From a virus (taxonomy: Duplodnaviria > Caudoviricetes): DNA of 53,813 nucleotides. The notes beneath the pieces were generated by a model. That model saw only the letters and a list, made by a program, of their open reading frames with translations, was not told the DNA's origin and searched no databases. The stretch covers positions 1 through 53,813 of IMG/VR virus record IMGVR_UViG_3300032309_000894, one strand, 5' to 3'. The first letter of the stretch is position 1. Every line of letters begins with the position of its first letter. The translations under genes and the position numbers were made by a program. Of the stretch, positions 3,079-52,890 are shown piece after piece.

Positions 3079-4494
3079 ATGAAATCTGATCTGTATCGGC
3101 TGAACCAGAAATATCGCGGGGCACCGACCAAAAAGTCAGCCTACGCCAAGGGTGGTTCAGTGCGCCGTCACTTTGACGGGGGCGGCCTCAATGACATGGC
3201 GATGGCGTACAACGATGGCTCCGGTCAGGCTGATCCTACTGATGGCGCTGGCGGTGATGTCGCCCCACCGGCTGCGCCTGTTGTTGTCACCCCGCAGGCA
3301 GCGCCTCCTCCGGCAGCGGCGGTCGTCACACCACAAGCAACCGTTGTCGCGCCGCAGGCATCAGCAGCACTTGATCGCACGGCGGAACTTGAGGCACTGC
3401 TCAACCGGTATGCGCCGCCATCGAACCAATACACCCAGGAACTGGCAGAATCTCGGCGCAGGGCTCAGACCGAGACCGAGGCTTTCACCCGGATGATCCA
3501 GCAAATGTCTCAGCGCAGCGAGAGCCCGACATCGCGCGCCGAGATGTACTTCCGATTGGCGGCGGCTTTCGGATCGCCCACCAAGACAGGTAAGTTTGCT
3601 GAGAACTTGTCGCTCGTCGGCAAAGAGATGAGCGAATACGCCAAGGGTCGCCGGGCGGAAGAAAGCGATATGCGTAACCTTGCCTTGAAGGCTCAGGAAA
3701 TCCGCATGACCGGTGCCCGACAGGATTTGACCACGGCGCAGGCTTTGGCCGCACAGGAAACCGGGGAACGCCGCACTCTCGCGCGCGAAGTCATCAAGGA
3801 ATATCTCGCATCGGGTCGCCCGCAATCTGATGCCGGTAAAGTGGCAGAGGATATGGGTCTCCGACAGGGCACGCCTGAGCATCGTGAATTTGTCAACAGG
3901 TACATTGAAAGCAAGCGTGAAAGCGGCGACCTGTATAAACAGGCGATGATTGAGATGCAGCGAACCGGTCTTGAGCTTCGTCAGGCGGAAGCTGCTCGCA
4001 AAGCTGAACGCGACAAAGAACTTACACCTGCCGAACAGCGCATGCGGCTCGACGCAGAAGCCACTTTGAGCGCAACCGAAAGAGCACAAAGAACTATCAA
4101 CGAAGCTCTTAGAATTAACGATAATACTTTTGGCACATCGGCATTTGACACAGCGCAATATGCAATGCGGTCAATGGCAGGGTCAAATGACCCAAAAACC
4201 GCAAATACCGCTCGTCTTCGTGTTCTGTTGGGCGAAGCGGCAATTGCCCAATTGCGCGAGTCTTTTGGTAGTCAAATTACTGACAGTGAACGTGCCGCTT
4301 TGGATAGACTTCAGGGCGCTCTTGCTTCAACTCCAGAAATTCGTCGCGGTATATTGCAAAGGACGCTGGATGAACTTGAAAGGTCGCAGGCTCGCCAACG
4401 TAGCCTTGTCCAAGACATCACCAGCGGCAGGTATCGTCAGCAGCAACCTGCCCAGGCACCCGCCCAGCCGCCTGCCCAAGGAGAAACACCATGA
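3079..4494 (+). CDS. Putative internal virion/ejection protein
   Basis: 471 aa, helical A/E/R/Q-rich; N-terminal YAKGG and FDGGG motifs; GAGGA RBS; position in the late operon. Confidence 0.6.
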   Translation: MKSDLYRLNQKYRGAPTKKSAYAKGGSVRRHFDGGGLNDMAMAYNDGSGQADPTDGAGGDVAPPAAPVVVTPQAAPPPAAAVVTPQATVVAPQASAALDRTAELEALLNRYAPPSNQYTQELAESRRRAQTETEAFTRMIQQMSQRSESPTSRAEMYFRLAAAFGSPTKTGKFAENLSLVGKEMSEYAKGRRAEESDMRNLALKAQEIRMTGARQDLTTAQALAAQETGERRTLAREVIKEYLASGRPQSDAGKVAEDMGLRQGTPEHREFVNRYIESKRESGDLYKQAMIEMQRTGLELRQAEAARKAERDKELTPAEQRMRLDAEATLSATERAQRTINEALRINDNTFGTSAFDTAQYAMRSMAGSNDPKTANTARLRVLLGEAAIAQLRESFGSQITDSERAALDRLQGALASTPEIRRGILQRTLDELERSQARQRSLVQDITSGRYRQQQPAQAPAQPPAQGETP

Positions 4495-6620
4495 GCGATA
4501 GTCTCAATTTTGCCCGCGCCCTGATTGGGCAAGGCGTTGGCATGGGATGGGGTGACGAGGCCGAGGCATGGCTGCGCTCTCGCATTACCGGTCGCCCGTA
4601 TGAGGGCGAACGTGCGCGTATCAATCAGGAATATAACCAGTTCCAACAGCGCAACCCGTATCTGGCACCTGTCGCAGAGTTTGCGGGCGGCGTGCTTCCG
4701 GCAGTCGGTGCCTACATGGCTGTGCCATTCACAGGTGGCGCGGCAGCACCCGCCGCAGCCGCTACAACGGCTCGCACTGCCGGTGCCCTGGGCACCATTG
4801 CAAACCGCATCGCGGGCAACACAGCGGCTCGGGTGGGTGCCGGTGCGGCGACTGGGGCGGCAACTGGCGTGGGCATCAACGATCAGATTGACGAAGGTAC
4901 GGCCATTGATGCTGCCGCGCTCGGCACTCTTGGGGCTGTAACCGGAGGTCAGGCCCCTCGCGTCGCGCGTATGTTGGCAACTCCTTACGGTCGAGGGGCC
5001 GTTACCGGTGCCACACAAGGCGGCATCTCTGGCGCGGGCATGGCTGAACCTGACAGCCGCGTTGAAGGTGGAACGGTTGGGGCTTCTATCGGTGCCCCCG
5101 TCGGCGCGGCTGTCCCCGCTGTTGCGAGGAATGTTGGATCGGCCTGGAGATGGCTGAGCGAACGCCTGTCCCCCACGCCTGCAACTGTTGAACGCGGTGC
5201 CGCTGATCGGATCAACCGGGCTTTGAACCAAGCGGGTCTAGAGCCGTCTGATATTTCCACACGTCTTGACGCGGATAGGGCTATGGGCGTTCCGTCTGTC
5301 GTCGCCAACGTGGACCCTCGTCTGGCCACTCTTGCTGAAACCGTCACACAACGCAGTGGCCCCAGTTCCACCACGGTTGAGCGTGCTTTGGGTGAGCAAC
5401 GGGGTGGTGCCCGCCAGCGAGTTTATGGCCAAGTGGAACAAGGTCTTGATCCTGGCGACTTTTTTAACGATGAACAAAAACTTGTTAACACCATGCGCGC
5501 TCGCGCTGCACCAGCATATCAAGAAGCGTATCGTGTTGGCGAAGTGTTTGATCCGCAAATCACAAGTCTGTTGGAACTTCCACAATACCGGAGCGCTTGG
5601 AATACTGCCCGTGAGCTTGCGGCAGAAGATGCATCAAAAGCGCAAATTCAATCTATTCGTACAGGCTCGGCTTTTGATCCTGAAGAATTCAGGTTGCGCG
5701 AAATCTATCGTGTCACCGGCAAAGACCCCGATACAGGTGCGGACATTCTTGAGCTTGCTCAAACGGTACCTGACGTCCGCACGCTTGACTATATGAAACG
5801 GGCGCTTGATGCTCAACTTACCGCAGCCCTCACATCTGACAATCCTGTTGTTCGCGCTTCCATTTCTGCTTTGCGCGAACGTCGTAACGCCTTACGGGAT
5901 CGCACCAAAGAACTTGTGCCTGAATACCGCCGTGCGGTTGATGAATTTGCCAGTGATGCTAGTGTTTTAGATGCTATGCGTTCAGGCATGGACGATTTTG
6001 GTCGCCTTAAGCATGAAGAAATCGGTAGGCTTTTTGGCAACGGGCCAGGGGCTTTGAATGCTTCTGAACGTGAAGCGTTCCGCACGGGCGCGGCTCGCAA
6101 CATCTACAGCACGATCATGACCCCATCTGGAAACCCCAACATGGCGGATCGCCTTATTGGGTCGCCTGAAACCCGGCAGAAGCTCGAGGCCATGTTTGAC
6201 AGTCCGGCTCAATTTGATCTGTTTAGGGCGGCTCTTGAGCGCGAATCGCAGCTTTTCCAACAATCCAACCGCATTCTTGGAAATTCTGCCAGCGTTCGTC
6301 GCGCGTACAACGCCGCAGAATTTGAAGGCGGCGCTGATGTTGGAGAAGCAATGGCCGATGCTGCCCGTGGTAGCTGGGGGCGTTCTCTTACCAACATGGC
6401 GTTGCGGGCTTTTCGTGGAGGTGCCGACACCGATCAGATTGCTGAACGCACGGCCCGAATGCTCATGTCAAGCGATCCGGCAGAAGTGGCAGCGGCTGTC
6501 AGGGTGCTGGAAAACGCTTCTGAGAGGGCCGCACAAGGCGAGCGCCGCCTTGGCATGGGTGAGGCAGGGGTCATCGGCGGAACGGCTACAGGCGTCATCC
6601 CAGAGCCGTATACGGAGTAG
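4491..6620 (+). CDS. Putative DNA transfer/ejection protein
   Basis: 709 aa; Gly/Ala-rich hydrophobic segments followed by a helical domain; last late gene; ATGA overlap with the upstream gene. Confidence 0.6.
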   Translation: MSDSLNFARALIGQGVGMGWGDEAEAWLRSRITGRPYEGERARINQEYNQFQQRNPYLAPVAEFAGGVLPAVGAYMAVPFTGGAAAPAAAATTARTAGALGTIANRIAGNTAARVGAGAATGAATGVGINDQIDEGTAIDAAALGTLGAVTGGQAPRVARMLATPYGRGAVTGATQGGISGAGMAEPDSRVEGGTVGASIGAPVGAAVPAVARNVGSAWRWLSERLSPTPATVERGAADRINRALNQAGLEPSDISTRLDADRAMGVPSVVANVDPRLATLAETVTQRSGPSSTTVERALGEQRGGARQRVYGQVEQGLDPGDFFNDEQKLVNTMRARAAPAYQEAYRVGEVFDPQITSLLELPQYRSAWNTARELAAEDASKAQIQSIRTGSAFDPEEFRLREIYRVTGKDPDTGADILELAQTVPDVRTLDYMKRALDAQLTAALTSDNPVVRASISALRERRNALRDRTKELVPEYRRAVDEFASDASVLDAMRSGMDDFGRLKHEEIGRLFGNGPGALNASEREAFRTGAARNIYSTIMTPSGNPNMADRLIGSPETRQKLEAMFDSPAQFDLFRAALERESQLFQQSNRILGNSASVRRAYNAAEFEGGADVGEAMADAARGSWGRSLTNMALRAFRGGADTDQIAERTARMLMSSDPAEVAAAVRVLENASERAAQGERRLGMGEAGVIGGTATGVIPEPYTE

Positions 6621-6622
6621 GC

Positions 6623-7917: not shown

Positions 7918-7920
7918 GGA

Positions 7921-8415: not shown

Positions 8416-8430
8416 TGTCGTATTCCTTTC

Positions 8431-29151: not shown

Positions 29152-30918
29152 ATGGCTGAGCGCAACGAAATCCCGAACCGCATGACGGCTCTCGGCTTGC
29201 TCGAGCAGATGCGCCGCCGGGCCAGTGCGAACCGCGAGCCCGAGTTCAACCCGATCAACGCAACCCTGCGCGGTCAACGCCAGCCACCCTTGCCGATCCC
29301 GCCGCGCCCACCTGCCGTAATACCCCCGCCACCGCCCCAGCAGGCCGCGCCACAGGCCCGTGGGCAGGCTCAGGCGCTACCGGTGCCACCTGTTCCCCCG
29401 GCGGTTATTCCGCAGCAAGAAGGTGCGCCTGCGAGGCCAATCGCTGAGAGGTTCAATCCGCAAAACCCACATGTGGCGACCGCCATCGAAATGGCCGAAC
29501 GGTATGGTTTGCCGCGCAATGTGTTCCTGTCACTGGTGCAGCAAGAAAGCCGCTTCGATCCGAACGCGGTAAGCCGTGCCGGTGCATTGGGGCTCGGGCA
29601 GTTGATGCCCGGTACGGCGCGCGACCTGGGCGTTGATCCCACGAATCCCACACAGAACCTTGAGGGCAGCGCACGCTACCTGCGCCAGCAGCTGGACCGG
29701 TTTGGCGGTGACATGCCGCTGGCCCTGGCGGCGTATAACGCAGGGCCGCGCCGGGTAATTGAAGCGGGCAATGCTATTCCCGACAACGCCGAGACGCAGG
29801 CGTATGTGCCGAGCGTGATGCGCCGCGCTGGCGTTCCCGGTTACGCTGAAGGCGGCCCGGTGGACGCAATACCGGTACACGAGATAAACGTGGTGGCAAC
29901 CCGCCTTCCGCGTCGTCGCGCACCGCGCCCGGCCCCGCGCGAGGAACTGACGGCAGACCAACTGAATGCCATGGTGCTGGACAGGCTTGCCGCGCGTTAT
30001 GACGTGGCTCCTGAATCCATCATGGCCGCTGAAGCCCGTGACCGCATTGGTCGGGCCATGGGTTACGCTGAGGGTGGCCGCGTCATGAGTGACGAAGAGT
30101 ATGACCGCCGCCTGCTCGAGCGCATGAAGCGCGACACGGGCCGCACCACCGAGTCAACCAATGCCGAGCAGGCTCGGGCTCTACGCAGCGCGGGCTATGA
30201 CGCGGCCCAGTTGGCGTCGGACATCTTTCTGCCGCAGAGCCCTCTGGATGCGGCCCTGATGGTGGCCCTGGGGCCGGGGGGTCGTATGGCCCGGCTGGCA
30301 GGTTCGACGGCTTTGATGGCGATGGAGCCGAGCGAAGCGGAAGCTGGTGGGCTGCGTCGGTTGGGAACGCGATTTGTTCGGAGAAGCAAATCTTTTGATT
30401 CGCCCTTCAACAGAGACGCTGAACATATCGCAATGTTTGCGGAAACCAAAAATCCAAGAGAAACTTTGGGTCAGTTGAGGAGTTATGGACCTGCTGCTTG
30501 GATTTCGCGTGGAGACGACGCGGTAGATGTTAGGGATATTCAACCCGACATTGTTCGCGCATTGCGAAATTCTAGACGTCATGAAGATTATAACACAACC
30601 GCTGCGACATTAGCTCGATTAGCTAACCCAGAAAACATTGTAGACAGCGCGGGCATGTGGGATGACCCCCAACTGGTTCGTGAAGTGTACGAAAACGTTA
30701 TACAACCCCGAGAGATTACGTCAGTGCGTACCAATGACGGTCTTTTGGTGTTTGATCCTGTTAACGTCAGGCCAATTCGTACTGAGTACTCCCACGGCGG
30801 CCTCGCCCAGCTTCATCACAAATACGCCGAGGGTGGCGCGGTCAGTGCTCAACCTGCTATCTATGATCCCGACGCGGTAAACACGCTCGCCAATCAAATC
30901 GAGGCTGGATATGTCTGA
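29152..30918 (+). CDS. Multidomain protein with SLT lytic transglycosylase domain
   Basis: QESRF, GALGLGQLMP, ALAAYNAG, ETQAYV; YAEGG x3. Confidence 0.85.
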   Translation: MAERNEIPNRMTALGLLEQMRRRASANREPEFNPINATLRGQRQPPLPIPPRPPAVIPPPPPQQAAPQARGQAQALPVPPVPPAVIPQQEGAPARPIAERFNPQNPHVATAIEMAERYGLPRNVFLSLVQQESRFDPNAVSRAGALGLGQLMPGTARDLGVDPTNPTQNLEGSARYLRQQLDRFGGDMPLALAAYNAGPRRVIEAGNAIPDNAETQAYVPSVMRRAGVPGYAEGGPVDAIPVHEINVVATRLPRRRAPRPAPREELTADQLNAMVLDRLAARYDVAPESIMAAEARDRIGRAMGYAEGGRVMSDEEYDRRLLERMKRDTGRTTESTNAEQARALRSAGYDAAQLASDIFLPQSPLDAALMVALGPGGRMARLAGSTALMAMEPSEAEAGGLRRLGTRFVRRSKSFDSPFNRDAEHIAMFAETKNPRETLGQLRSYGPAAWISRGDDAVDVRDIQPDIVRALRNSRRHEDYNTTAATLARLANPENIVDSAGMWDDPQLVREVYENVIQPREITSVRTNDGLLVFDPVNVRPIRTEYSHGGLAQLHHKYAEGGAVSAQPAIYDPDAVNTLANQIEAGYV

Positions 30919-33636: not shown

Positions 33637-33827
33637 ACGAAGGCAAACTTCTCAATCTTCTGAAGCAAGCTCAATTTCAGTTTTCTGTGGACGCCCTGAA
33701 GCGCCCACAGGAACGCGATGCCTTTGAATACGGGTATCGTGTTGGTGTCGTTGCCGGATACGAGGCAGCGATTAGCGTGCTGTTGAAACTCATCGAAGAG
33801 GAGAAATCTGGTGGTAACGACTTCTGA
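33633..33827 (+). CDS. Hypothetical head-module protein
   Basis: EY...VG..AG pattern; position before GroES. Confidence 0.6.
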   Translation: MNEGKLLNLLKQAQFQFSVDALKRPQERDAFEYGYRVGVVAGYEAAISVLLKLIEEEKSGGNDF

Positions 33828-34218
33828 GGACGCACTGGCAGAGGCTTTCCCGGATGTAAATCCGGGCGTTCAGCCTTTTGGGAGCCGCGTTCTGGTTCAA
33901 ATCCGTACCCCTCGCAAAGTCACAAAGGGCGGTATCATCCTGTCCTCTGACACGCAGGACACTGAAAAGTGGAACACCCAGGTGGCCAAGGTGGTCAGCG
34001 TCGGGTCGCTGGCGTTCCGAAACCGGAACACCCAAGAGCATTGGCCGGAAGGCGCATGGTGCGTGCAAGGTGATTTCGTTCGCGTGCCAAAATACGGCGG
34101 CGACCGCTGGGAAGTGGCGATCAATCGCGATGACAGCGCGATGTTCGTGATCTTTAACGATTTGGATATTATTGGCCGTGTCACGGGTGATCCGCTGACG
34201 GTCAAGGCTTTCATCTGA
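33811..34218 (+). CDS. groES: GroES-like co-chaperonin
   Basis: QPFGSRVLV, TKGGIIL, VVSVG, GDFV..KYGG, DLDIIG. Confidence 0.85.
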   Translation: MVTTSEDALAEAFPDVNPGVQPFGSRVLVQIRTPRKVTKGGIILSSDTQDTEKWNTQVAKVVSVGSLAFRNRNTQEHWPEGAWCVQGDFVRVPKYGGDRWEVAINRDDSAMFVIFNDLDIIGRVTGDPLTVKAFI

Positions 34219-34231: not shown

Positions 34232-35149
34232 ATGTCTGGCACTCTGAGAGAAGATGACGACAAGGACGAGGAAATCGTCATTGTCGAAGACCCCAGTCAG
34301 CTATCTGACAACGATCAGGATGACGATGACGCTGATGACCGCGTAGCCTCATCCGGCGACGATGATGAGCGCGATGCCATTCGTGAGCGTCGGCGTGCCG
34401 AAAAGCAGGACCGGAAGCAGCGCCGCGACGAGGCAATCAAGCGCGACAAGCTCGAGCTAGATTTCCTCCGCAATCGCAACGATAATCTTGAGCGTCGGCT
34501 TAGCGTTCAAGAACAGCGCACCCACAGCATGGATTTGAGCGCGTTTGATAACGCTCTCAACCAAGCGGCCCATGAAGCCGACATGGCTGAGCGGGTCATT
34601 GCCAAGGCTGTTGCTGCCGGTAACGGCGACGACGTCACGCAGGCGATGCGATACCGGGATCAGGCACTGGCGCGTATCCAGCAACTGAATTTCCAGAAAA
34701 ATCAGGTGGCTCAGCAGCCCCCTCAACGTCCGCAGCCCCAGCAAATCGACGATGTCACGCTGCGCTATGCCCAGGAGTTCATCGAAAAGAACCCTTGGTA
34801 CGATTCGATGGGTCGAAATGAAGATTCTGCTATCGTCATCGCTATCGACCAAGCCCTGGCCAAAGACGGTTTTGACCCTCGCACTTCGGAATATTGGGAC
34901 GAACTGAACAAGCGAGCGGCACGCCGCCTGCCCGAAAGGTTCGAGAAAACCTCCTCCCGGCGCGAGCCGCGCGGTGGTCCGGTGGTGGGCTCTGGCCGTG
35001 AGCACGCCCCGACAAGCACTCGTCGTGAGGTGTATATCTCGCCCGAGCGCAAGCAAGCCCTAGTGGAAGCGGGCGTCTGGGATGACCCGGTTCTGCGTTC
35101 CAAGTACGTCAAACGGTATGCCGAATATGACCGAAACAACAAGGCGTGA
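34232..35149 (+). CDS. Probable capsid scaffolding protein
   Basis: Acidic N-terminus and coiled coil; upstream of capsid gene. Confidence 0.65.
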   Translation: MSGTLREDDDKDEEIVIVEDPSQLSDNDQDDDDADDRVASSGDDDERDAIRERRRAEKQDRKQRRDEAIKRDKLELDFLRNRNDNLERRLSVQEQRTHSMDLSAFDNALNQAAHEADMAERVIAKAVAAGNGDDVTQAMRYRDQALARIQQLNFQKNQVAQQPPQRPQPQQIDDVTLRYAQEFIEKNPWYDSMGRNEDSAIVIAIDQALAKDGFDPRTSEYWDELNKRAARRLPERFEKTSSRREPRGGPVVGSGREHAPTSTRREVYISPERKQALVEAGVWDDPVLRSKYVKRYAEYDRNNKA

Positions 35150-35156
35150 AAAAACC

Positions 35157-35185
35157 TTGCGCGCTGGTTTCAAAAACCCTAATGC
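35157..35185 (+). promoter_or_regulatory. Sigma70-like promoter upstream of the capsid cluster
   Basis: cTTGCGC-N17-TAATGC in an intergenic gap. Confidence 0.4.
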
Positions 35186-35213
35186 TTACTCAATCGCTGA
35201 AAGGAGCGATTTA

Positions 35214-35744
35214 ATGACCGACGAACGCTTGAAAAAATCTGCTGGTGAAGGCCGCGAAAGCCGTGCGATGCAAGATCGCGCTGTTACCCAAAATCGCGAA
35301 GTCTCTGATGATGAGCGGGTTGCTATGTTTCGTCAGCAATTCTTTCAGTCCTCTCTTCCAGACCTGCCAAAAATCCCCGGCTGGCATACCTGCTGGCTGA
35401 CAACCACCAATCCCCGTGACTCGATTCACATGCGTATTCGACTGGGCTACGAGCCCGTGAAGCCGGAAGATGTTCCCGGCTGGGAATATGCGACATTGAA
35501 GACCGGCGACTGGACTGGGCTCATTGGCGTCAACGAGATGCTTGCCTTCAAGCTACCGATTTCTCTTTACGAGAAGTACATGCAGGAGGCGCACCATGAC
35601 GCCCCATTGCGTGAGGAAGAGAAGCTCACCGACACTGCCGATTTCCTCGAGCAGCAGGCGCGGGCTTCTAAATCCAAACTGCAAATTGGGGAAGGCAATC
35701 TGGAGATTGGGCAGCAGCGGGAGGCCATGTTTGACCTCTCGTAA
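35214..35744 (+). CDS. Head-module protein of unknown function
   Basis: AAGGAG RBS; start re-called at MTDERL. Confidence 0.7.
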   Translation: MTDERLKKSAGEGRESRAMQDRAVTQNREVSDDERVAMFRQQFFQSSLPDLPKIPGWHTCWLTTTNPRDSIHMRIRLGYEPVKPEDVPGWEYATLKTGDWTGLIGVNEMLAFKLPISLYEKYMQEAHHDAPLREEEKLTDTADFLEQQARASKSKLQIGEGNLEIGQQREAMFDLS

Positions 35745-35768
35745 CCCCTCAATCCATTAGGAGCCACA

Positions 35769-36362
35769 ATGTCTGCCATTAGCGCACCTTTTGGCTTTCG
35801 CGCGTCGTACCACAACAGTGGCCAGATGCGTCCGAAGGCTTACACTATCGCAAGCACCTATGCCGCCAACATCTTCTCCGGTGACCCGGTCAAGCTGACG
35901 GACAACGGTGTAATCCAGCTTGGCACGTCTGACGGCACCCGCTCGGGTACGACTGACGGCATTGCCCTGCTGGGTATTTTCGCTGGCTGCCAGTATCTCG
36001 ATGCTTCCGGCAAGCCGACGATCAGCCCCTTCTGGCCCTCGGGCGCTACAGGCACGGAAATCGTGGCTTGGGTGTACGATGACCCGGAAACGCTGTTTGA
36101 CGTCCAGTACACCAACCCCTCGGCGGGCACGACTGTGCAGACCGCAGTGGGTGAGGAGTTCGACTGGACCGTTGCTTCCCCGGGTGGTTCCACCCAGACG
36201 GGTCTCAGCAACTGCCAGATCGGTGTCATCCAGGCAACGTCTGGCCAGTTCCAGATGACTGGGTTTGCCGACAACATCAACGACGCACTGACCGACGCCT
36301 ATGTGCAAGTGACTGTTCGTATCAACGAGCATCACTACAAGGCAGCGGTTAACTCGGTCTAA
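35769..36362 (+). CDS. Probable capsid decoration/minor head protein
   Basis: Beta-rich; APFGFR, IFSGDPV, YDDP; directly before the MCP. Confidence 0.65.
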   Translation: MSAISAPFGFRASYHNSGQMRPKAYTIASTYAANIFSGDPVKLTDNGVIQLGTSDGTRSGTTDGIALLGIFAGCQYLDASGKPTISPFWPSGATGTEIVAWVYDDPETLFDVQYTNPSAGTTVQTAVGEEFDWTVASPGGSTQTGLSNCQIGVIQATSGQFQMTGFADNINDALTDAYVQVTVRINEHHYKAAVNSV

Positions 36363-36376: not shown

Positions 36377-37291
36377 ATGGCTACACCAATGCGTAGTACC
36401 GACTTCCGGTCGGTAGTTGAGCCCATCCTGAACGAAGTCTTCGACGGCGTTTATGATCAGCGCGCTGATGAGTGGAAGATGGTCTTCCGCGAGCAGAAGG
36501 GTATTCCCCGCAACTACCATGAAGAGCCCGTGCTCTATGGTTTTGGCGCGGCCCCTGAACTGCCCGACGGCATGGCCGTTAGCTACCAGAGCGGTGGCGT
36601 TCTGTTCCTCCAGCGTTACCTCTACAAAGTCTACGGTCTGGCCTTCAGCCTGACCAAGGTGCTTGTCGAGGACGGCGATCACATCCGCATCGGCCAGACC
36701 TACGCGAAGCATCTCGCGCAGTCTCTGATCGAGACGAAGGAGACGCTGGGTGCGAACATCCTGAACCGCGCGTTCAATGCTGCCTATCCGGGCGGTGACG
36801 GCGTGGCTCTGGTTGCCAACAATCACCCCATCGTCAACGGCACGTTCTCCAACGTGCTGACCACGCCTGCGGCGCTGTCGCAGACCTCGCTGGAGCAGTT
36901 GCTCATCCAGATTCGCAATGCCGTCGACAACAACGGCAAGCGCATCCGGTTGACGCCGAAGAAGATCGTGACGGGTCCGTCCAACGTCTTCCAGGCGGAA
37001 GTGCTGCTCAAGTCCGTGCTGCGTACCGGCACCGCTGACAACGACATCAACCCGGTGAAGTCGATGGGCCTCCTGTCCGATGGTCAGGCGAACCTGTCGC
37101 GTATCACCTCCACCACTGCTTGGTGGATTCAGACCGATGCCCCCGAAGGCATGAAGCTGATGATGCGTCGTGGTCTCGAGAAGAGCATGGAAGGCGATTT
37201 CGAAACCGACAGCATGCGCTACAAGGCCACCGAGCGTTACACGTTCGGCTGGACCGACCCGCGCGGCGTGTTCGGCACCGCTGGCGTCTAA
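36377..37291 (+). CDS. Major capsid protein (Mu gpT-like)
   Basis: 304 aa; strong codon bias; GDGVAL...HP, TADNDIN, YKATERY.FGWTDPRG. Confidence 0.9.
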   Translation: MATPMRSTDFRSVVEPILNEVFDGVYDQRADEWKMVFREQKGIPRNYHEEPVLYGFGAAPELPDGMAVSYQSGGVLFLQRYLYKVYGLAFSLTKVLVEDGDHIRIGQTYAKHLAQSLIETKETLGANILNRAFNAAYPGGDGVALVANNHPIVNGTFSNVLTTPAALSQTSLEQLLIQIRNAVDNNGKRIRLTPKKIVTGPSNVFQAEVLLKSVLRTGTADNDINPVKSMGLLSDGQANLSRITSTTAWWIQTDAPEGMKLMMRRGLEKSMEGDFETDSMRYKATERYTFGWTDPRGVFGTAGV

Positions 37292-37326: not shown

Positions 37327-37400
37327 CCGGGTAAACCGGCGTTGCAGACAGTCCCGGCTGACGTCATGCAGACTGTAACGCCTATCTCGCATGAGAGGAT
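37327..37400 (+). ncRNA. Structured RNA candidate (Mu-gpT-DE-like position)
   Basis: 10-bp stem plus two crossing helices; immediately downstream of a gpT-like MCP. Confidence 0.5.
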
Positions 37401-37406
37401 ATTATC

Positions 37407-37826
37407 ATGGCTTCAACTACATTTTCCGGTCCCGTCACTTCTACCAATGGTTTCATCGGTGCCATCACCGGCAACGTAACCGGCAACGTAACCGGCAACG
37501 TAACCGGCAACGTGACCGGCAACATCACGGGCGTCGTGACCGGCACCGTTCAGCTTCTGTCTGGCGCGGGCGCAGTCAACCTGACCACCGCTGTCACCTG
37601 CATCACCACCACTGGCGCATCCCAGGCTCTGACCTTGGCCAATGGCGCGGTCGGTCAGTTCAAGACCATTGTCCACACTGTGGATGGCGGTTCTGCGGTT
37701 CTCACCCCGACCACGGCAATCGGCTTTACAACCATCACGTTCACCGCTGTCGGTGATTCGGCGCAGTTGTATTACTCGACCACGGGTTGGGCTGTCGTCG
37801 GTTCCAAGGGCGTCACAATCGCCTAA
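37407..37826 (+). CDS. Virion structural protein (head fibre-like)
   Basis: TTFSGPV N-terminus; TGNV repeats; Thr/Gly-rich. Confidence 0.65.
   Translation: MASTTFSGPVTSTNGFIGAITGNVTGNVTGNVTGNVTGNITGVVTGTVQLLSGAGAVNLTTAVTCITTTGASQALTLANGAVGQFKTIVHTVDGGSAVLTPTTAIGFTTITFTAVGDSAQLYYSTTGWAVVGSKGVTIA
37467..37526 (+). repeat. 12-nt coding tandem repeat ACCGGCAACGTA x5
   Basis: Three exact and two degenerate copies. Confidence 0.9.
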
Positions 37827-38271: not shown

Positions 38272-38529
38272 ATGGACCTGACGCTGTGGAACACTGGGCT
38301 TTCTTTGGTGGTGGGCATCGTAAGTTGGGTTCTGAAGGATAAGGCGGCTGAACTGAGCCGCATATCCATCCTTCTGAACAAGACGCGCGAGGAAATCGCC
38401 AAGGATTATGTGACGAAGACGGAAGTTCACGCTGACATAAATCGCGTGATGAACCGCCTTGAAGTGCTAGACGCAAAGCTCGACAGATTGATCGAGAACA
38501 ATCGTGTGAAGGGTGCCCCCAATGGGTAA
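38272..38529 (+). CDS. Single-TM plus coiled-coil protein (holin candidate)
   Basis: N-terminal hydrophobic helix followed by a heptad region. Confidence 0.5.
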   Translation: MDLTLWNTGLSLVVGIVSWVLKDKAAELSRISILLNKTREEIAKDYVTKTEVHADINRVMNRLEVLDAKLDRLIENNRVKGAPNG

Positions 38530-39250
38530 AACGCTGAAATACGTTTCCGAGTTCACATTCCCATCCGCCGGTAAGACGGCGGCACCGGGTTATGCCAAGG
38601 GCGGCATGGCTATGGGTAACATGAAGTCAACCAAGCCCGCCGCTTCGCCCGCCCCGAAGAGCGACATGCTGTACAGCAAGAAGGAGAACACCGCTAAGAC
38701 CCTCCTTCATGATGGCAAGGGTGCACCCATGCCGCATGCCAAGGGCTCGGTGAACATGGCCAAAGGTGGCCCTGCGATGTCTGCCGGTCGTGCCGCAATG
38801 GCCCAGGCGGCGGCAAATCGTCAGCCTGCCCAGGCTCAGGCCATGATGCGCCCCCCTACCATGGGTGGTGGCGTACCAGCAGCCCACCAGCAGCGGCTTG
38901 CTCAACTTGCTGCCATGCAAACCCGTGCCCAAGCTCAGCCCATGCCGCAAGTTAAACCGCCCATGCCGCAAATGGGTAATCGACCTCAAGTGTCTCAGCC
39001 TTTGATGCCTGGGGGTGCTGGTGCTGCTGACGAAATGAGACCGGCAGTTATGAAGCGCGGTGGTATGGCCAAGGGTGGCATGAGTGACTGCGGTATGGCC
39101 AAGGGTGGCATGTCCAAGGTCGGCAAGGTCATGGGCGAGTTCAAAGCCGGTGAACTGCATTCCGGCAGCAAGAACGGCCCCATGGTGACGAACCGCAAGC
39201 AGGCGGTTGCCATTGGCATGTCGGAAGCCCGCAAGGCGACCAAGAAGTAG
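38522..39250 (+). CDS. Basic low-complexity protein with MAKGG repeats and DUF6496-like C-terminus
   Basis: KVMGEFKAGELHSGS..GP.VT.RKQAVAI.MSEA. Confidence 0.7.
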   Translation: MGKTLKYVSEFTFPSAGKTAAPGYAKGGMAMGNMKSTKPAASPAPKSDMLYSKKENTAKTLLHDGKGAPMPHAKGSVNMAKGGPAMSAGRAAMAQAAANRQPAQAQAMMRPPTMGGGVPAAHQQRLAQLAAMQTRAQAQPMPQVKPPMPQMGNRPQVSQPLMPGGAGAADEMRPAVMKRGGMAKGGMSDCGMAKGGMSKVGKVMGEFKAGELHSGSKNGPMVTNRKQAVAIGMSEARKATKK

Positions 39251-43255: not shown

Positions 43256-43981
43256 ATGGCACAAACCGGCTACACCCCGATCCAGTTGTACCGCACGACG
43301 ACCGCTGCGGCGGTGCCGTTGACTGCGAACCTCGCCCCCGGCGAACTTGCGATCAACATCGCCAACACCGACATGGCGCTGTTCGCTGAGAACGCCTCCG
43401 GCACCGTTGTTCGCCTTATGAACAACCCGGCGGGGCTAAAATACCCTACGGCAGACGGCACCAATGGTCAGGTGGTCACGACCAATGGCTCGGGGGTTCT
43501 CAGCTTTTCAACGTCATCTCAAGTTTATCCCGGCGCGGGTGTTGCGGTTTCAACCGGAAGCGCTTGGGGAACTTCCCTTACCGCGCCAAGCGGTGCGCTT
43601 GTCGGCACAACTGACACGCAGACCCTTTCGGCTAAAACCATTGAGGCTGGAACTTTTACCAACGGCTATACCGAAGAGACGGTCACAGCCAACACAACCA
43701 CGGCTTACACAATTTCTCTCGCCAACGGCACCTTGCAAATCCTGACGCTGACTGGCAATTGCACGTTTACGTTCCCAACAGCCACCGCAGGTCAGTCATT
43801 CATGATGTTCCTTAAGCAAGACGCGACTGGTTCTAGAACTGTGACGTGGCCTGCTGCGGTGAAGTGGCCGTTCTCAGCAGCGCCGACGATCACGGCGACA
43901 GCCAGCAAGGGGGATAAGTTTGTGTTTACTGCTGATGGGACGAACTGGCTGGGTTCAGTTGCTGGGCAGAATTACCTCTAA
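43256..43981 (+). CDS. Tail fibre protein
   Basis: L.PGELAIN N-terminal domain; LKQDATGSRTVTWP C-terminal domain. Confidence 0.75.
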   Translation: MAQTGYTPIQLYRTTTAAAVPLTANLAPGELAINIANTDMALFAENASGTVVRLMNNPAGLKYPTADGTNGQVVTTNGSGVLSFSTSSQVYPGAGVAVSTGSAWGTSLTAPSGALVGTTDTQTLSAKTIEAGTFTNGYTEETVTANTTTAYTISLANGTLQILTLTGNCTFTFPTATAGQSFMMFLKQDATGSRTVTWPAAVKWPFSAAPTITATASKGDKFVFTADGTNWLGSVAGQNYL

Positions 43982-45006
43982 TGTTTAGCGCGAACACAAC
44001 TCAAGTCACGGGGTTTCAGCAGATTGCTATTTCCCATGACACAACGCCATTTGTTTCGGCATATCCTTGGTCAGGTTCTGGTTTTGGAGCCAAGTATTCT
44101 GATCCAGCAACATTGCCAACAGGCAATGGGCGTGGCGTAGCATTTAGCCCTAACGGCTCCGCAATTGCGATTTCTCATACTACAACGCCATTTGTTTCGG
44201 CATATCCTTTGTCAAGTTCTGGTTTTGGAGCCAAGTATTCTAATCCAGCAACATTGCCAACAGGCAATGGGTTTGGTGTTGCGTTTAGCCCTAACGGCTC
44301 CGCGATTGCTATTTCCCATGACACAACGCCATATGTTTCGGCATATCCTTGGTCAAGTTCTGGTTTTGGAACTAAATACACTAATCCAGCCACTTTGCCG
44401 ACAGCCGTTGGGTTTGGCGTAGCATTCAGTTCTAGCAATTCCGCGATTGCTATTTCCCATGACACAACGCCATATGTTTCGGCGTATCCTTGGTCTGGTT
44501 CTGGGTTTGGAACCAAGTATTCTAATCCAGCGACGTTACCGACAAGCACTGGGTATAGCGTAGCATTCAGTCCTAGCGATTCCGCGATTGCTGTGGCGCA
44601 TGCCGCAACGCCATATGTTTCGGCATATCCTTGGTCAGGTTCTGGGTTTGGAACCAAGTATTCTAATCCAGCGACGTTACCGGCAAACCTTGCGTTAGGT
44701 GTTACCTTCAGCCCTAACGGCTCCGCAATTGCTGTGGCGCATGGTAGCAACCCCAACATCTCGGTTTATGCGTGGTCCGCAAGCGGGTTTGGAGCCAAAT
44801 ACACCGATCCTGCAACATTGCCGACAGGCACGGGAAGAAGTGTCGCATTCAATCTTAGCAATTCTGCGATTGCTGTTGCTCACAACACAACGCCATTTGT
44901 CTCAGCTTATCCATGGTCAGGTTCTGGGTTTGGAACTAAATACACCGATCCTGCAACATTGCCGACAAACACGGGAAATGGCGTCGCCTTCAACACAATT
45001 ACATAG
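43981..45006 (+). CDS. Seven-bladed beta-propeller, probable receptor-binding protein
   Basis: 7 x 47-aa (141-nt) repeats with VAFSPNG turns. Confidence 0.8.
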   Translation: MFSANTTQVTGFQQIAISHDTTPFVSAYPWSGSGFGAKYSDPATLPTGNGRGVAFSPNGSAIAISHTTTPFVSAYPLSSSGFGAKYSNPATLPTGNGFGVAFSPNGSAIAISHDTTPYVSAYPWSSSGFGTKYTNPATLPTAVGFGVAFSSSNSAIAISHDTTPYVSAYPWSGSGFGTKYSNPATLPTSTGYSVAFSPSDSAIAVAHAATPYVSAYPWSGSGFGTKYSNPATLPANLALGVTFSPNGSAIAVAHGSNPNISVYAWSASGFGAKYTDPATLPTGTGRSVAFNLSNSAIAVAHNTTPFVSAYPWSGSGFGTKYTDPATLPTNTGNGVAFNTIT

Positions 45007-46763: not shown

Positions 46764-46769
46764 AACATC

Positions 46770-46828
46770 TTGCCCGGTGACTTGTTTGACGCCTATAAAC
46801 CTTTTTGCGGGCACAGGCTGCATCAGCC
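46770..46828 (+). promoter_or_regulatory. Promoter-like element and leader hairpin
   Basis: cTTGCCC-N18-TATAAA; GGCTG-CAT-CAGCC. Confidence 0.45.
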
Positions 46829-46851
46829 TCTGACATAGCTCTGGAGCGCGC

Positions 46852-50883: not shown

Positions 50884-50889
50884 TATAGC

Positions 50890-52890
50890 ATGTCGATGCG
50901 CGAACAAATCATGCAGATCGCCCAAAGCGATCCGAAATTCGCCCAGGCGGTGGACGCCATGGAGCGCGCCGTCATCAATATGCCAATCATGCCAGACGAT
51001 CTGGATGAGGGTATTGAGACACTTGAAAAGATTATCAAAAATCCTAACAAGTACGCAGAAATCAGGTCAAAGGCCATTGCCGATGACATGGTCGATGAAG
51101 AGATGCTGCCCGAGCAGTACGACCAAGTTTATATCGTGTCACTGCTCATCGCCCTGTATGGCCTGCAAGATCGCATTTCCAAAAAGGGTTACGCCCGGGG
51201 TGGCTTGACCGTTGCTGCCCGGCAATTGGCCGCGCAGGGTCGAGGCGGCGATACTGAACTGGCACACGTCAACCCGCGCGAAGCGGCGATGCTTCGTCGT
51301 GCTGGTGGTTCGGGAACGATCAACCCAAACACCGGACTTCGTGAATACAAAAGCTGGATTAAGAAAATAAAGTGGGGCAAGGTTTTGGCGGCGGTTGCGC
51401 CCATCGCCCTTAGCTTTATCCCCGGCATTGGCACGGCTATCGGTGGATTTTTGAGCGCGGGGCTGCTTTCAGGCACGGCGGCTAGTGCTTTGGGCGGCGC
51501 GGCTATCGGTGCGGCAGCATCCGCAATCGGTGGCGGTAATCCGCTAGTCGGAGCAGTGACCGGTGGTATTGGTGGCGGTCTCGGTGATGTTTTGGGCGGT
51601 GGCATCAACAGTGCACTTGGCTTGGGTCTATCAGATAGCACTGCCAGTCTTCTTGGCGGTGCGGCGGCTGGTGCCGGTGCTTCCGCACTCCAAGGCCGCG
51701 ATCCGATTACCGGTGCCATTACAGGCGCTGTTGGTGCGGGCATTAGCGGGATGGGCGGTCTTGGGATTGAAAACCCTGACATAAGCCGGGTGGTGGCGGG
51801 AGCCACACGAGGTTTTGGTAATGCCCTTACTGCCGGGCAATCGCCTTCAGAGGCTTTAACGGCTGGCGGTCTTAGCGGTCTTGGTGGTCTTGCTAGTGGG
51901 TTCTTAGGCGCGAACCCGATGGGTTTGCCGACATTAACTTCAACCAGTTTCCTGCCTGGCACCAATGCAATTCCCACGCCTAATGCACTTGCAGCCGCTG
52001 ATGCGTCGGGCAGTGCTGATTCTACGGGTGGCGCGGGCGCGGATACCACCAGTAGTCCGTTAACTCAAATTGCTGATGCAGCAGCTACACAACCCGGCAC
52101 AACCCCGGCAACCGAGGTGGCCGCCGCGCCTGGAACAACACCAGCGTACAATATAGGGGATTATGGTGGAGGCCTCGGGCCAACTACACTTACGGGTGTC
52201 CCGGGCCTAAGCGGTTTGGCTGAAAATCCAAACAACATGGCGACCTATGGTGAAAGTGTTGGGCAAGCAACGCCTCCGGCTTATCGTGACGCCGACGGTT
52301 ACCCTCTTTCTGACACTCTTCCACCCAACCCTCCTGGTGAAGGTAGCACCCTGGGTCGTCTGGCTCCGCTTCTTGCGGGCGGCGCGGCTATTGCGGCATT
52401 GTCTGGCATGGGCTCGTCTAAAACCGCCCCTGCCAACGTGCAGCGAGCGGTTGGAAGTCTACCCGCCAATCAGCAGGCATATATTAACCGCCCGGGTATC
52501 ACATGGGATTGGGACAAACTCTCGGCAGATGCGGCGAGCAGCAACCTCACGCTCGATCAGTATATGGCGCGGAACTGGAACCGAGTTACCAGCGGTGAAT
52601 ATAACAGAGCCCCGGCAATGGCGCAGGGCGGCCTGAATGCTATGTCTCGCTTCGTGCGGGGCGGCGGCACCGGGCGCTCTGATGAAATTGATGCCAAACT
52701 CTCTGATGGCGAGTATGTTATCGACGCTGAAACCGTTGCCATGCTCGGTGATGGATCGAGCAAGGCTGGTGCTAAACGGTTGGATGAAATGCGAGCGTCA
52801 ATCCGCAAACACAAAGGCAAAACCCTAGCCCGAGGTAAATTCAGCCCGGATGCTAAATCGCCGCTCACCTATTTGAAGGGAATTGCCTGA
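50890..52890 (+). CDS. Putative ejection protein with glycine-zipper region
   Basis: YARGG + DTELAH..NPNTGLREY domain; long Gly/Ala hydrophobic tract; MAQGG + SDEI.AKLSDGEYV domain. Confidence 0.65.
   Translation: MSMREQIMQIAQSDPKFAQAVDAMERAVINMPIMPDDLDEGIETLEKIIKNPNKYAEIRSKAIADDMVDEEMLPEQYDQVYIVSLLIALYGLQDRISKKGYARGGLTVAARQLAAQGRGGDTELAHVNPREAAMLRRAGGSGTINPNTGLREYKSWIKKIKWGKVLAAVAPIALSFIPGIGTAIGGFLSAGLLSGTAASALGGAAIGAAASAIGGGNPLVGAVTGGIGGGLGDVLGGGINSALGLGLSDSTASLLGGAAAGAGASALQGRDPITGAITGAVGAGISGMGGLGIENPDISRVVAGATRGFGNALTAGQSPSEALTAGGLSGLGGLASGFLGANPMGLPTLTSTSFLPGTNAIPTPNALAAADASGSADSTGGAGADTTSSPLTQIADAAATQPGTTPATEVAAAPGTTPAYNIGDYGGGLGPTTLTGVPGLSGLAENPNNMATYGESVGQATPPAYRDADGYPLSDTLPPNPPGEGSTLGRLAPLLAGGAAIAALSGMGSSKTAPANVQRAVGSLPANQQAYINRPGITWDWDKLSADAASSNLTLDQYMARNWNRVTSGEYNRAPAMAQGGLNAMSRFVRGGGTGRSDEIDAKLSDGEYVIDAETVAMLGDGSSKAGAKRLDEMRASIRKHKGKTLARGKFSPDAKSPLTYLKGIA

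What the first reader, a model, noticed from the sequence alone, without database searches (positions are those of the whole stretch)
3142..52632. [YMF]-x-x-G-G motif shared by four unrelated late proteins: candidate proteolytic maturation or capsid-loading signal
Seen: YAKGG 3142 and FDGGG 3172; YAEGG 29842, 30064 and 30823, and YSHGG 30787; YAKGG 38591, MAKGG 38756, 39065 and 39095, and MKRGG 39050; YARGG 51190 and MAQGG 52618. The motifs sit in linkers at domain boundaries of presumed internal virion proteins. I did not see them in the capsid, portal or replication enzymes. Knowledge: adenovirus and ASFV proteases cut virion precursors after Gly-Gly. From memory, the processed lambda tape measure gpH has FATGG/YATGG near its C-terminus. 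Inference: a genome-wide polyprotein-processing or cargo-sorting code. No canonical prohead protease was recognised here, so the enzyme or receptor that reads the motif is unidentified.
Basis: partly seen in the sequence, partly recalled or inferred. Interest (0 to 1): 0.8.

Follow-up and report, generated by a model that had tools for sequence, protein, structure and literature searches.

The report
Shared joint peptide on phage injection proteins
Four proteins that this uncultured short-tailed phage probably carries in its particle and injects share a short conserved peptide (bulky residue, Ala, any, Gly, Gly) at their module joints; the same peptide sits where phages T5 and lambda trim their tail rulers, so it may be a cutting signal, but no cut is shown here.

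Summary
All 13 listed sites exist, in frame, in four + strand ORFs. The core [YM]-A-x-G-G is enriched: 11 against 0.79, 0 of 400. Conservation is the real proof. In uncultured relatives the four families hold 181 copies against 4.7 expected. Portal and capsid homologues hold none. Ala and Gly-Gly are near-invariant in 105 diverse homologues.

In the transglycosylase protein, homology blocks break exactly at the motif. Relatives carry other cassettes between copies, including polyvalent-protein domains. In two proteins the motif follows a leader of about 22 to 27 residues.

Lambda gpH does have FATGG and YATGG. T5 pb2 is cut R1127|AEGG, and P22 gp7 is cut by a host protease at E20|KGG.

My reading is a conserved joint peptide of DNA-delivery proteins and a probable processing site, cut before Ala rather than after Gly-Gly. 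No phage protease was found. No cut is shown, and other late proteins do not avoid the motif.

This scan has noted the same motif on other DNA.

The parts
3079..4494 (+). ORF of 471 aa, presumed ejection protein. A leader of about 21 residues is followed by YAKGG and then FDGGG.
   Evidence: No Pfam, PHROG or NCBIfam family. Homologues in 5 related loci. Three of the five keep YAKGG at residue 22. In two of the five, 8 residues that hold it are replaced by one residue, while the second F-[DN]-x-G-G site is kept.
3142..3156 (+). YAKGG (residue 22)
3172..3186 (+). FDGGG (residue 32), a non-Ala variant. Relatives have FDEGG or FNYGG here.
29152..30918 (+). ORF of 588 aa between the large terminase and the portal. 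It has an SLT lytic transglycosylase domain (residues 111-207) followed by motif-bounded modules. It is the cassette-bearing 'polyvalent' cargo-type protein.
   Evidence: Pfam SLT 8.2e-25. PHROG 'internal virion protein with endolysin domain' 2e-24. The 11 homologous ORFs are 358-1524 aa long and carry 2-8 motifs, some cut off by a contig end. Block edges fall on motifs.
29842..29856 (+). YAEGG (residue 231), at the C-terminal edge of the SLT domain
   Evidence: In the AlphaFold model, pLDDT falls below 50 from residue 233.
30064..30078 (+). YAEGG (residue 305), the start of a module that relatives carry at other positions
   Evidence: Query residue 305 aligns to subject motif positions 1129 (alignment starts one residue earlier, q304-s1128), 857, 610, 531, 510 and 8.
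30787..30801 (+). YSHGG (residue 546), an Ala-to-Ser variant. Relatives have YAHGG, YAQGG, FAEGG or FAKGG.
30823..30837 (+). YAEGG (residue 558), inside the conserved C-terminal tail (residues 546-588)
   Evidence: The tail is kept at the C-terminus of six of the seven homologues compared, whatever their length.
38513..39250 (+). ORF of 245 aa: leader, YAKGG, a Met/Ala/Pro/Gln-rich stretch with MAKGG copies, and a C-terminal DUF6496 domain. The true start is probably the ATG at 38522.
   Evidence: Pfam DUF6496 2e-10 at residues 197-245. 400 related stretches in IMG/VR. 75 of 80 homologues carry the motif. YA[KR]GG lies at about residues 17-35 in most of them. Homologues start MGKTLKYV.
38591..38605 (+). 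YAKGG (residue 27)
38756..38770 (+). MAKGG (residue 82)
39050..39064 (+). MKRGG (residue 180), a degenerate copy. Close relatives have MAKGG here.
39065..39079 (+). MAKGG (residue 185)
39095..39109 (+). MAKGG (residue 195), directly before the DUF6496 domain
50890..52890 (+). ORF of 666 aa, a Gly-rich tape-measure-like ejection protein. It is the homologue of Caulobacter phage RW gp066.
   Evidence: Weak PHROG tape-measure hits at residues 565-622. tblastn to RW, GB2A, RLK and KcrB gives 66% identity over residues 577-664. PDB chain 8zdo_S (tape measure gp16) matches at 2.1e-09.
51190..51204 (+). YARGG (residue 101)
   Evidence: Column counts in 104 homologues: F36/Y19/M17, A66, R44/K12, G77, G88, with about 17 gaps.
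52618..52632 (+). MAQGG (residue 577), the N-terminal edge of the tape-measure-type module
   Evidence: A in 93, G in 104 and G in 103 of 105 rows. It follows a helical domain (537-574) with block-mean pLDDT 83-96.
52651..52665 (+).
   Evidence: Column counts: L54/Y24/F10, A56/V33, G in 105 of 105 rows.
52660..52737 (+).
   Evidence: Invariant G, D, A, S, G and E columns. 8073 cluster representatives match the 97-aa C-terminal query at E <= 0.001. Predicted disordered as a monomer.

Best explanation
The pentapeptide is a conserved joint peptide of phage DNA-delivery proteins. Its form is a bulky residue (Tyr, Met, Phe or Leu), then Ala, any residue, Gly, Gly, often with Gly or Lys before it.

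In this phage it marks three kinds of boundary:
- the end of an N-terminal leader of about 22 to 27 residues in two proteins;
- the borders of exchangeable cassettes in the transglycosylase 'polyvalent' protein;
- the edge of the one full tape-measure-type Gly-Gly...Gly-Glu-Tyr-Val module in the tape-measure-like protein.

Shown: the motif is under protein-level selection, is confined to these families, and coincides with module borders.

Inferred: it is a flexible, exposed site at which these proteins are cut, between the bulky residue and Ala. The phage encodes no recognisable protease, so the cut would be made by a host protease or an unknown activity, during assembly or after ejection. Cutting would remove the leaders and separate the cassettes.
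For: Selection and specificity:
- 181 copies against 4.7 expected in the four families. The excess holds after de-replication.
- 0 copies in 38 portal and 62 capsid homologues.
- Ala and Gly-Gly are near-invariant in 105 diverse rows and at the first site of the same protein.
- Synonymous codons differ between copies.

Joints:
- BLAST blocks of the transglycosylase protein start or end on the motif in all seven homologues compared.
- Cassettes between motifs include ART-PolyVal, PBECR5 and DUF7178. More distant phages carry PcfJ-bearing proteins with motif clusters.
- Insertions in the DUF6496 family are flanked by YAKGG copies.
- The shortest family members are a leader of about 20 residues, YAKGG, then the domain.

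Cutting, by precedent only:
- T5 pb2 is cut after R1127 (main-text passages of PMC10038345). The next residues are AEGG.
- P22 gp7 loses 20 residues to a host protease. The P22 record's note names OpdA; the PMC4992974 passages say a host protease and cite the 1992 oligopeptidase A paper. The site reads SYPE|KGGKGG.
- Lambda gpH carries FATGG and YATGG in the unresolved region where it is cut. The site and the catalyst are unknown (passages of PMC12617516). A cut at F733|A734 would give 79.8 and 12.5 kDa, against the gel estimates of about 78 and 14 kDa quoted there.

No phage protease: Pfam, PHROGs and NCBIfam find none in any ORF searched. The Atlas gives none for the two ORFs next to the portal-to-capsid block.
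Against: - No cut is shown for any protein of this phage or its relatives.
- The two precedents differ in register: two residues before Gly-Gly in T5, one in P22. Neither has Tyr, Met or Phe at the bulky position.
- P22's host enzyme is an oligopeptidase, which would not obviously reach internal sites at residues 231-577 (my own knowledge, not tested here).
- Other late proteins do not avoid the motif after de-replication (5 against 6.17 +/- 2.47; 120 of 300 shuffles give as few or fewer). A proteome exposed to a motif-reading protease might be expected to avoid it.
- Two relatives have lost YAKGG from the 3079 family. The cultured relative RW has one copy in all. Single copies are therefore dispensable.
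- A profile of the full tape-measure module finds only its own site in the window. The other sites are orphan pentapeptides, so the link to tape-measure processing rests on five residues.
- The lambda masses fit a cut near residue 710 as well.
Confidence: 0.45

Rival explanations
1. The motif is an uncut structural joint or docking motif. It would be a strand followed by a Gly-Gly turn that folds only in an assembly, for example between copies of the ejection proteins, or against the portal, nozzle or tail lumen. It would hold unfolded cargo in register for ordered ejection or for building the trans-envelope conduit.
For: The most conserved stretch, Ala-x-Gly-Gly through Gly-Glu-Tyr-Val, is predicted disordered as a monomer despite a 105-row alignment (residues 579-583, 585-608 and 619-622 below pLDDT 50). 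That is typical of regions that fold on binding. The same region of lambda gpH (about 690-817) is unresolved in the virion (passage of PMC12617516). MAKGG copies at a 10-residue period, with 1 to 7 copies per homologue, look like an avidity or repeat element more than a set of cut sites. No protease is encoded.
Against: No partner is identified. A partner shared by long-tailed tape measures and short-tailed phage internal proteins is hard to name. Single copies are dispensable. It does not explain why homology blocks break exactly at the motif.
Confidence: 0.27
2. The motif is a permissive linker kept by modular evolution. A short flexible peptide that tolerates any neighbour is carried along with cassettes when they are exchanged between phages. 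It is conserved by descent and as a safe junction, and nothing reads it.
For: Block edges and insertions coincide with motif copies. Copy number and cassette content vary widely between close relatives. Other proteins do not avoid the motif.
Against: Ala and Gly-Gly are near-invariant at orthologous sites in homologues of 48-86% identity, more than a mere spacer needs. The motif also stands at fixed sites that are not cassette borders (residues 101 and 577 of 50890-52890). Codons differ between copies, so the DNA repeat is too short and too varied to drive homologous exchange. The same five residues recur in tape measures of unrelated phages.
Confidence: 0.18
3. The motif is a capsid-loading (cargo-sorting) signal read by the scaffold, portal or capsid shell.
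For: Two of the four proteins carry the motif close to the N-terminus (residues 22 and 27), where T4-type targeting peptides lie (recalled, not from a call).
Against: Tape measures of long-tailed phages carry the same motif but are built into tails, not heads. The constant parts of the transglycosylase family are its N-terminal region and its 43-residue C-terminal tail. These are better candidates for a loading signal than the internal repeated copies. Two large neighbouring presumed internal proteins lack the motif.
Confidence: 0.07
4. The sharing is chance or compositional: Gly- and Ala-rich low-complexity proteins happen to share a pentapeptide.
For: The loose pattern is weakly enriched (7 of 400 shuffles reach it). 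The single-genome excess of YA.GG is not exceptional among all gapped patterns.
Against: Within-protein shuffles that keep composition give 0.79 against 11 observed. In relatives they give 4.7 against 181. Conservation is column by column.
Confidence: 0.02

Closest known systems
C-terminal Gly-rich region of long-tailed phage tape measure proteins: lambda gpH (cut to gpH* and gpHC) and T5 pb2 (cut to pb2* and pb2C)
   Same: The bulky-Ala-x-Gly-Gly peptide is followed by a Gly-Glu-aromatic-Val element: FATGG...RGEFVF...YATGG in gpH and R|AEGG...GEHGTEVV in pb2. Residues 577-622 of ORF 50890-52890 match two such elements of mycobacteriophage Douge tape measure gp16 (PDB 8zdo_S, 2.1e-09). One of the two is preceded by GYANGG. 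Both kinds of protein are thought to leave the virion ahead of the DNA.
   Different: This is a short-tailed phage by gene content (SU10-type adaptor, no tail tube or sheath gene found). Only one of its 14 sites has the full element. The motif is spread over four proteins rather than one. In lambda the cut site is unknown. In T5 the residue before Ala is Arg.
Polyvalent proteins of phages and conjugative elements (Iyer, Burroughs, Anand, de Souza, Aravind 2017, PMC5512222)
   Same: It is a late-gene protein with a cell-wall hydrolase. In relatives it also carries ART-PolyVal, PBECR5, DUF7178 and PcfJ domains in changing combinations. It is presumed to be packed and injected.
   Different: That paper proposes a zincin-like peptidase domain (MPTase) as the processing agent (passages). 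None is present here. A word search of that paper gave 0 hits for 'linker', 'glycine' and 'tape measure', so the joint peptide does not seem to be described there.
P22 ejection protein gp7, whose N-terminal 20 residues are removed by a host protease (OpdA, oligopeptidase A)
   Same: A leader of about 20 residues on an ejection protein is followed at once by Lys-Gly-Gly (SYPE|KGGKGG). The phage has no prohead protease, by my own knowledge of P22. Compare the leaders ending SAY-AKGG (residue 22) and PGY-AKGG (residue 27) here.
   Different: There is no detectable homology. The register differs by one residue, and gp7 has no Ala at the position after the cut. The host of this phage is unknown. 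I could not read the 1992 paper by Conlin and others.
Adenovirus and ASFV protease sites ending in Gly-Gly
   Same: A short peptide with a hydrophobic residue a few places before a Gly-Gly, found in virion precursor proteins.
   Different: By recall, the adenovirus consensus puts Met, Leu or Ile two residues before the Gly-Gly and cuts after it. Here the bulky residue lies three residues before, and the mapped phage precedents cut before the Gly-Gly. No cysteine protease gene was found.

Membership tests
Tape-measure-type Gly-Gly...Gly-Glu-[Phe/Tyr]-Val module (as in lambda gpH 733-782 and Douge gp16) | A bulky-Ala-x-Gly-Gly edge directly upstream of the element | tested here: met
   MAQGG at 577 and FVRGG at 588 lie 29 and 17 residues before S-D-G-E-Y-V. 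Among 150 representatives, 94 have a motif within 60 residues upstream. The preferred distances are 17 (26 cases) and 29 (23 cases).
Tape-measure-type Gly-Gly...Gly-Glu-[Phe/Tyr]-Val module (as in lambda gpH 733-782 and Douge gp16) | The conserved G-x-G-[ST]-G-R-x-D-x-I-x-A-x-L-S-x-G-E-[FY]-V element | tested here: met
   Met for residues 591-610 of ORF 50890-52890: phmmer to 8zdo_S at 2.1e-09 with two stretches, and invariant columns.
Tape-measure-type Gly-Gly...Gly-Glu-[Phe/Tyr]-Val module (as in lambda gpH 733-782 and Douge gp16) | The same element after the other motif sites of the window | tested here: not met
   A profile of the module (105 rows) scores 89.1 bits at its own site. No other site in the 65 proteins scores above 3.1 bits, and all have domain E-values of 0.35 or worse.
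Tape-measure-type Gly-Gly...Gly-Glu-[Phe/Tyr]-Val module (as in lambda gpH 733-782 and Douge gp16) | Proteolytic cut at the module | not testable with these tools
   Known for T5. The site is unknown for lambda. There are no protein data for this phage.
Polyvalent proteins (Iyer et al. 2017) | Two or more unrelated effector or enzyme domains in one late-gene polypeptide | tested here: inconclusive
   The window's protein has one Pfam domain, SLT. Its homologues add ART-PolyVal (31.8 bits, cut-off 31.2), PBECR5 (53.2 bits) and DUF7178 (35 bits).
Polyvalent proteins (Iyer et al. 2017) | A processing peptidase domain (MPTase) in the same protein | tested here: not met
   No peptidase family in the window's protein or in 7 homologues at E <= 0.01.
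Adenain or ASFV pS273R-type Gly-Gly-X processing | A cognate cysteine protease encoded by the virus | tested here: not met
   No protease family in 65 ORFs with Pfam. None in 34 late ORFs with PHROGs. None in 9 ORFs with NCBIfam.
Adenain or ASFV pS273R-type Gly-Gly-X processing | Hydrophobic residue two places before the Gly-Gly, cut after the Gly-Gly (consensus recalled, not from a call) | tested here: not met
   Here the bulky residue is three places before the Gly-Gly, with Ala between them. The mapped phage cuts lie before the Gly-Gly.
T4-type capsid-targeting leader with prohead protease | A prohead protease gene between portal and capsid genes | tested here: not met
   ORFs 34232-35149, 35082-35744 and 35769-36362 match no protease family. 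The Atlas gives only unnamed viral clusters and a weak scaffold lead of 0.87.
P22 gp7-type host-processed leader | A leader of about 20 residues followed by [Lys]-Gly-Gly on an ejection protein | tested here: met
   Motif at residue 22 of ORF 3079-4494 and residue 27 of ORF 38513-39250 (24 if the start is 38522). It lies at about residues 17-35 in most homologues of the latter family.
P22 gp7-type host-processed leader | Removal of the leader by a host oligopeptidase | not testable with these tools
   The host is unknown and there are no protein data.

The most novel reading that the evidence does not exclude
Bulky|Ala-x-Gly-Gly is a general cutting code of phage DNA-delivery proteins. It would be read by a conserved host protease or by the neighbouring Gly-Glu-aromatic-Val element itself. 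The same code would make gpH* in lambda and pb2C in T5, strip leaders from ejection proteins, and let short-tailed phages inject polyproteins that fall apart into separate anti-host effectors. That would explain why cassettes can be swapped freely between copies.
Probability: 0.2. Interest if true: 0.85.

Novelty: new variant of a known kind. Interest (0 to 1): 0.6.

Why it matters
How lambda's tape measure is cut, where and by what, is still stated as unknown in 2025 (passages of PMC12617516). How multi-domain 'polyvalent' cargo proteins are taken apart when they lack a peptidase domain is also unexplained.

A five-residue peptide shared by tape measures and by the injected proteins of short-tailed phages gives one concrete prediction for both questions. 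New N-termini should begin Ala-x-Gly-Gly, and fragment masses can be computed in advance.

It also gives annotators a cheap mark for ejection proteins and for the borders of their exchangeable cassettes.

I found no paper describing it. Whole-word search for FATGG, YATGG, YAKGG, MAKGG, YAEGG and AxGG returned 5 papers, none on phages. A search on tape measure, internal virion protein, conserved motif and Gly-Gly returned 2 unrelated papers. The polyvalent-protein paper has no 'linker' or 'glycine'. Subscription journals and supplements were not searchable.

This scan has noted the same motif on other DNA.

Tried and rejected
- Complex prediction of three copies of residues 570-628 of ORF 50890-52890 (the motif plus the Gly-Glu-Tyr-Val element): no verdict (score 0.02, mark 0.42). 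This says nothing either way.
- AlphaFold of the last 130 residues (105 rows): the motif and element are disordered, so no fold to compare. I ran no fold search.
- AlphaFold of the whole transglycosylase protein (12 rows): mean pLDDT 43.9. It is useful only for the SLT domain edge.
- Avoidance of the motif in other late proteins: an apparent threefold deficit (5 against 14.5) vanished after de-replication at 60% identity (5 against 6.17). Rejected as pseudo-replication.
- DNA-level repeat as the cause: codons differ between copies.
- Self-cleaving Ser-Lys (LexA-like) reading of 'G-R-S-D...G-E-Y-V': lambda's copy has no Ser at that place. Dropped without further test.
- Search for a protease or a motif 'reader' among ORFs 34232-36362: nothing found.
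- tblastn of the DUF6496 protein against cultured phages: no match for the whole protein. The domain alone gave 6 weak matches, none a studied phage. No proteomics could be borrowed.
- Solved structures: none covers the module. Douge gp16 is modelled only for residues 1658-1699 and lambda gpH only for 818-849.
- The 1992 P22 OpdA paper is not held. The T5 cut-site figure and table are in supplements I could not open.

Full report
**What the window is.** The window is a whole IMG/VR virus record of 53,813 bases with a terminal repeat.

- The + strand late block holds the small and large terminase, a portal (30911-33487) and a capsid protein (36377-37291). It also holds two SU10-type adaptor-like proteins, fibre proteins, a lysozyme and a spanin.
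- The minus-strand block holds replication genes.
- No tail tube, sheath or tape-measure family was found, so it is most likely a short-tailed phage.
- The nearest cultured phages are Caulobacter phages RW, KcrB, RLK and GB2A, with 68% nucleotide identity over part of the portal gene.

**The observation.**

- All 13 listed pentapeptides are present, in frame, in four + strand ORFs.
- With composition kept protein by protein, the loose pattern is hardly enriched: 18 against 10.29 +/- 3.20, and 7 of 400 shuffles reach it.
- The core [YM]-A-x-G-G is enriched: 11 against 0.79 +/- 0.88, and 0 of 400 reach it (per protein).
- The motif was picked after looking. An open count of all gapped four-residue patterns does not place YA.GG among the 12 most over-represented of the 116 that occur in at least four proteins.
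- I therefore do not rest the case on this one genome.

**Conservation.**

*DUF6496 family (ORF 38513-39250).*
- This protein has 400 related stretches in IMG/VR, of which 80 were kept.
- 75 of the 80 homologues carry [YMFL]A.GG, 166 copies in 19,112 aa.
- In most of the 48 printed, YA[KR]GG lies at about residues 17-35. MAKGG copy number runs from 1 to 7.

*Other proteins in the same loci.*
- 38 portal homologues (29,922 aa), 62 capsid homologues (18,024 aa) and 22 further late families hold none. The 65 homologues of the 760-aa fibre-like protein hold one.

*Pooled counts for [YMF]A.GG over distinct sequences.*
- The four carrier families hold 181 against 4.7 +/- 1.9 expected.
- Other late families hold 5 against 14.5 +/- 3.9.
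- That apparent deficit is pseudo-replication. At 60% de-replication it is 5 against 6.17 +/- 2.47.
- The excess in the carriers survives de-replication: 32 against 0.69, 41 against 1.12, 2 against 0.06 and 3 against 0.21.

*The C-terminal 97 residues of ORF 50890-52890.*
- These were searched against 1.84 billion representatives. 8073 matched at E <= 0.001 and 2975 at E <= 1e-10.
- I aligned 104 of the 150 listed. The 46 left out were chosen by hand, mostly those under about 360 aa.
- At site 577-581 the columns read M35/K17/L17/A12/F11/Y10, then A in 93, then variable, then G in 104 and G in 103 of 105 rows.
- FVRGG at 588 corresponds to [LYF]-[AV]-x-G in homologues.
- At site 101 the columns read F36/Y19/M17, A66, R44/K12, G77, G88 of 104 rows, with about 17 gaps.

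*Other points.*
YSHGG aligns with YAHGG, YAQGG and FAEGG. MKRGG aligns with MAKGG. FDGGG aligns with FDEGG and FNYGG.
- Codons differ between copies (GCC, GCT, GCG; GGT, GGC; TAC, TAT), so selection acts on the peptide.

**Anatomy.**

*Transglycosylase protein (29152-30918).*
- Its homologues range from 358 to 1524 aa and carry 2 to 8 motifs; some are cut off by a contig end.
- Pairwise BLAST blocks begin or end on a motif in all seven compared. The module starting at window residue 305 starts at subject motif positions 1129, 857, 610, 531, 510 and 8 (in the first the alignment begins one residue earlier). The N-terminal block ends on the motif after the SLT domain.
- The last 43 residues are kept at the very C-terminus in six of the seven.
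- The inserted cassettes include ART-PolyVal, PBECR5, DUF7178 and a wHTH domain.
- In more distant loci, 11 motif-rich ORFs that matched no window protein were scanned. Six of them hold a PcfJ domain, and those six lie at the upstream end of their locus.
- These are the marks of the 'polyvalent proteins' of Iyer and others (PMC5512222).
- The AlphaFold model is poor (mean pLDDT 43.9). Its only moderately confident part, the SLT domain, ends at residue 232, inside the first motif.

*DUF6496 family.*
- Insertions are flanked by YAKGG copies.
- The shortest members are a leader of about 20 residues, YAKGG and the domain.

*ORF 50890-52890.*
- MAQGG follows a confidently folded helical domain (537-574, block-mean pLDDT 83-96).
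- It opens a stretch that is predicted disordered although it is the most conserved part of the protein.

*Limits.*
- Only this one site has the full tape-measure-type element. A profile of it finds nothing else in the window.
- The 1295-aa ORF across the record ends and ORF 4491-6620, both presumed ejection proteins by position, lack the motif.

**Link to tape measures and to known cuts.**

gpH reads FATGG (733), then RGEFVF, then YATGG (778).
[quoted passage not shown] The site and the catalyst are unknown, gpH residues about 690-817 are unresolved, and gpH* corresponds to about residues 1-710.
- A cut at F733|A734 would give 79.8 and 12.5 kDa. This is compatible with the gel estimates but not better than a cut near residue 710.
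I checked it. The main text of PMC10038345 places the pb2 cut after R1127, and the T5 record reads ...NSFVPR|AEGGMMYPGVSYQMGEHGTEVV.
- The P22 record notes that the first 20 residues of ejection protein gp7 are removed by host OpdA. PMC4992974 says a host protease removes them before assembly. The sequence is ...SYPE|KGGKGG.
- Both mapped cuts therefore lie just before a Gly-Gly, not after it. They differ in register by one residue, and neither has an aromatic residue or Met before the cut.
- Mycobacteriophage Douge tape measure gp16 (PDB 8zdo_S) has two copies of the element, one preceded by GYANGG. Only its last 42 residues are modelled.

**Who reads it.**

- No protease family appears in any of the 65 ORFs (Pfam), in the 34 late ORFs (PHROGs) or in the 9 ORFs searched with NCBIfam.
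- The PHROG 'protease' hits of the capsid protein cover only the capsid half of fused families.
- The two unknown ORFs between portal and capsid have only unnamed viral look-alikes, and one weak scaffold lead.
- A cut, if it happens, would therefore need a host enzyme, as in P22, or an unknown activity.

**Verdict.**

It is a conserved joint peptide of presumed injected proteins and the same peptide as in tape measures.
- Cutting is plausible by two precedents but is not shown here. The likely cut is before Ala.
- 'Genome-wide code' and 'capsid loading' are not supported.
- The rivals are an uncut docking joint and a merely permissive linker. Neither is excluded.
- This scan has recorded the same motif on other DNA: tape measures, a marine short-tailed phage and crAss-like phages.
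- I found no paper that describes it. Subscription journals and supplements were out of reach.

Noticed in passing
window 1-454 and 53289-53813: The 103-base terminal repeat of the record lies inside a 48-base tandem-repeat array within one ORF. That ORF reads through the junction (52890 to the end, then 2-3067) and is 1295 aa if the ends are joined. The 'direct terminal repeat' is probably an assembly overlap, and the repeat copy number is uncertain.
   Followed up: partly
window 2-3067: The large protein is built largely of 16-residue and 18-residue tandem repeats, 48- and 54-base periods with up to about 17 copies. A weak DUF3106 hit is the only family.
   Followed up: no
window 44022-44968: A 141-base (47-residue) tandem repeat, 6.7 copies at 80% match, fills ORF 43981-45006. 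It may be a repeat-built fibre or propeller protein.
   Followed up: no
window 26442-27152: A GIY-YIG or homing-endonuclease-like ORF sits between the small and large terminase genes (PHROG 9e-07; Pfam SegE_GIY-YIG 3.7e-04, below cut-off). The RW record has its large terminase annotated in two pieces with a methyltransferase gene between them.
   Followed up: no
window 33811-34218: A GroES/Cpn10-like ORF lies just after the portal gene (Pfam 1.4e-09). It is also annotated in RW (gp090) and present in 44 related loci.
   Followed up: no
window 51238-51348: A second conserved block in ORF 50890-52890 has the consensus G-R-x-G-D-T-x-L-A-H-I-N-P-x-E-A...G-G-x-G-x-x-N-P-x-T-G-L-x-E-[YF]. It is kept in most of 104 homologues and is found by tblastn in a Methylophilales phage and others. 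Its function is unknown.
   Followed up: partly
window 38513-39250: The body of the DUF6496 protein is very rich in Met, Pro and Gln. Relatives carry runs such as MKHGG repeated five times. I did not test whether this is a metal-binding or other low-complexity function.
   Followed up: no
window 37467-37549: A 12-base tandem repeat, 6.9 copies, lies inside ORF 37391-37756.
   Followed up: no
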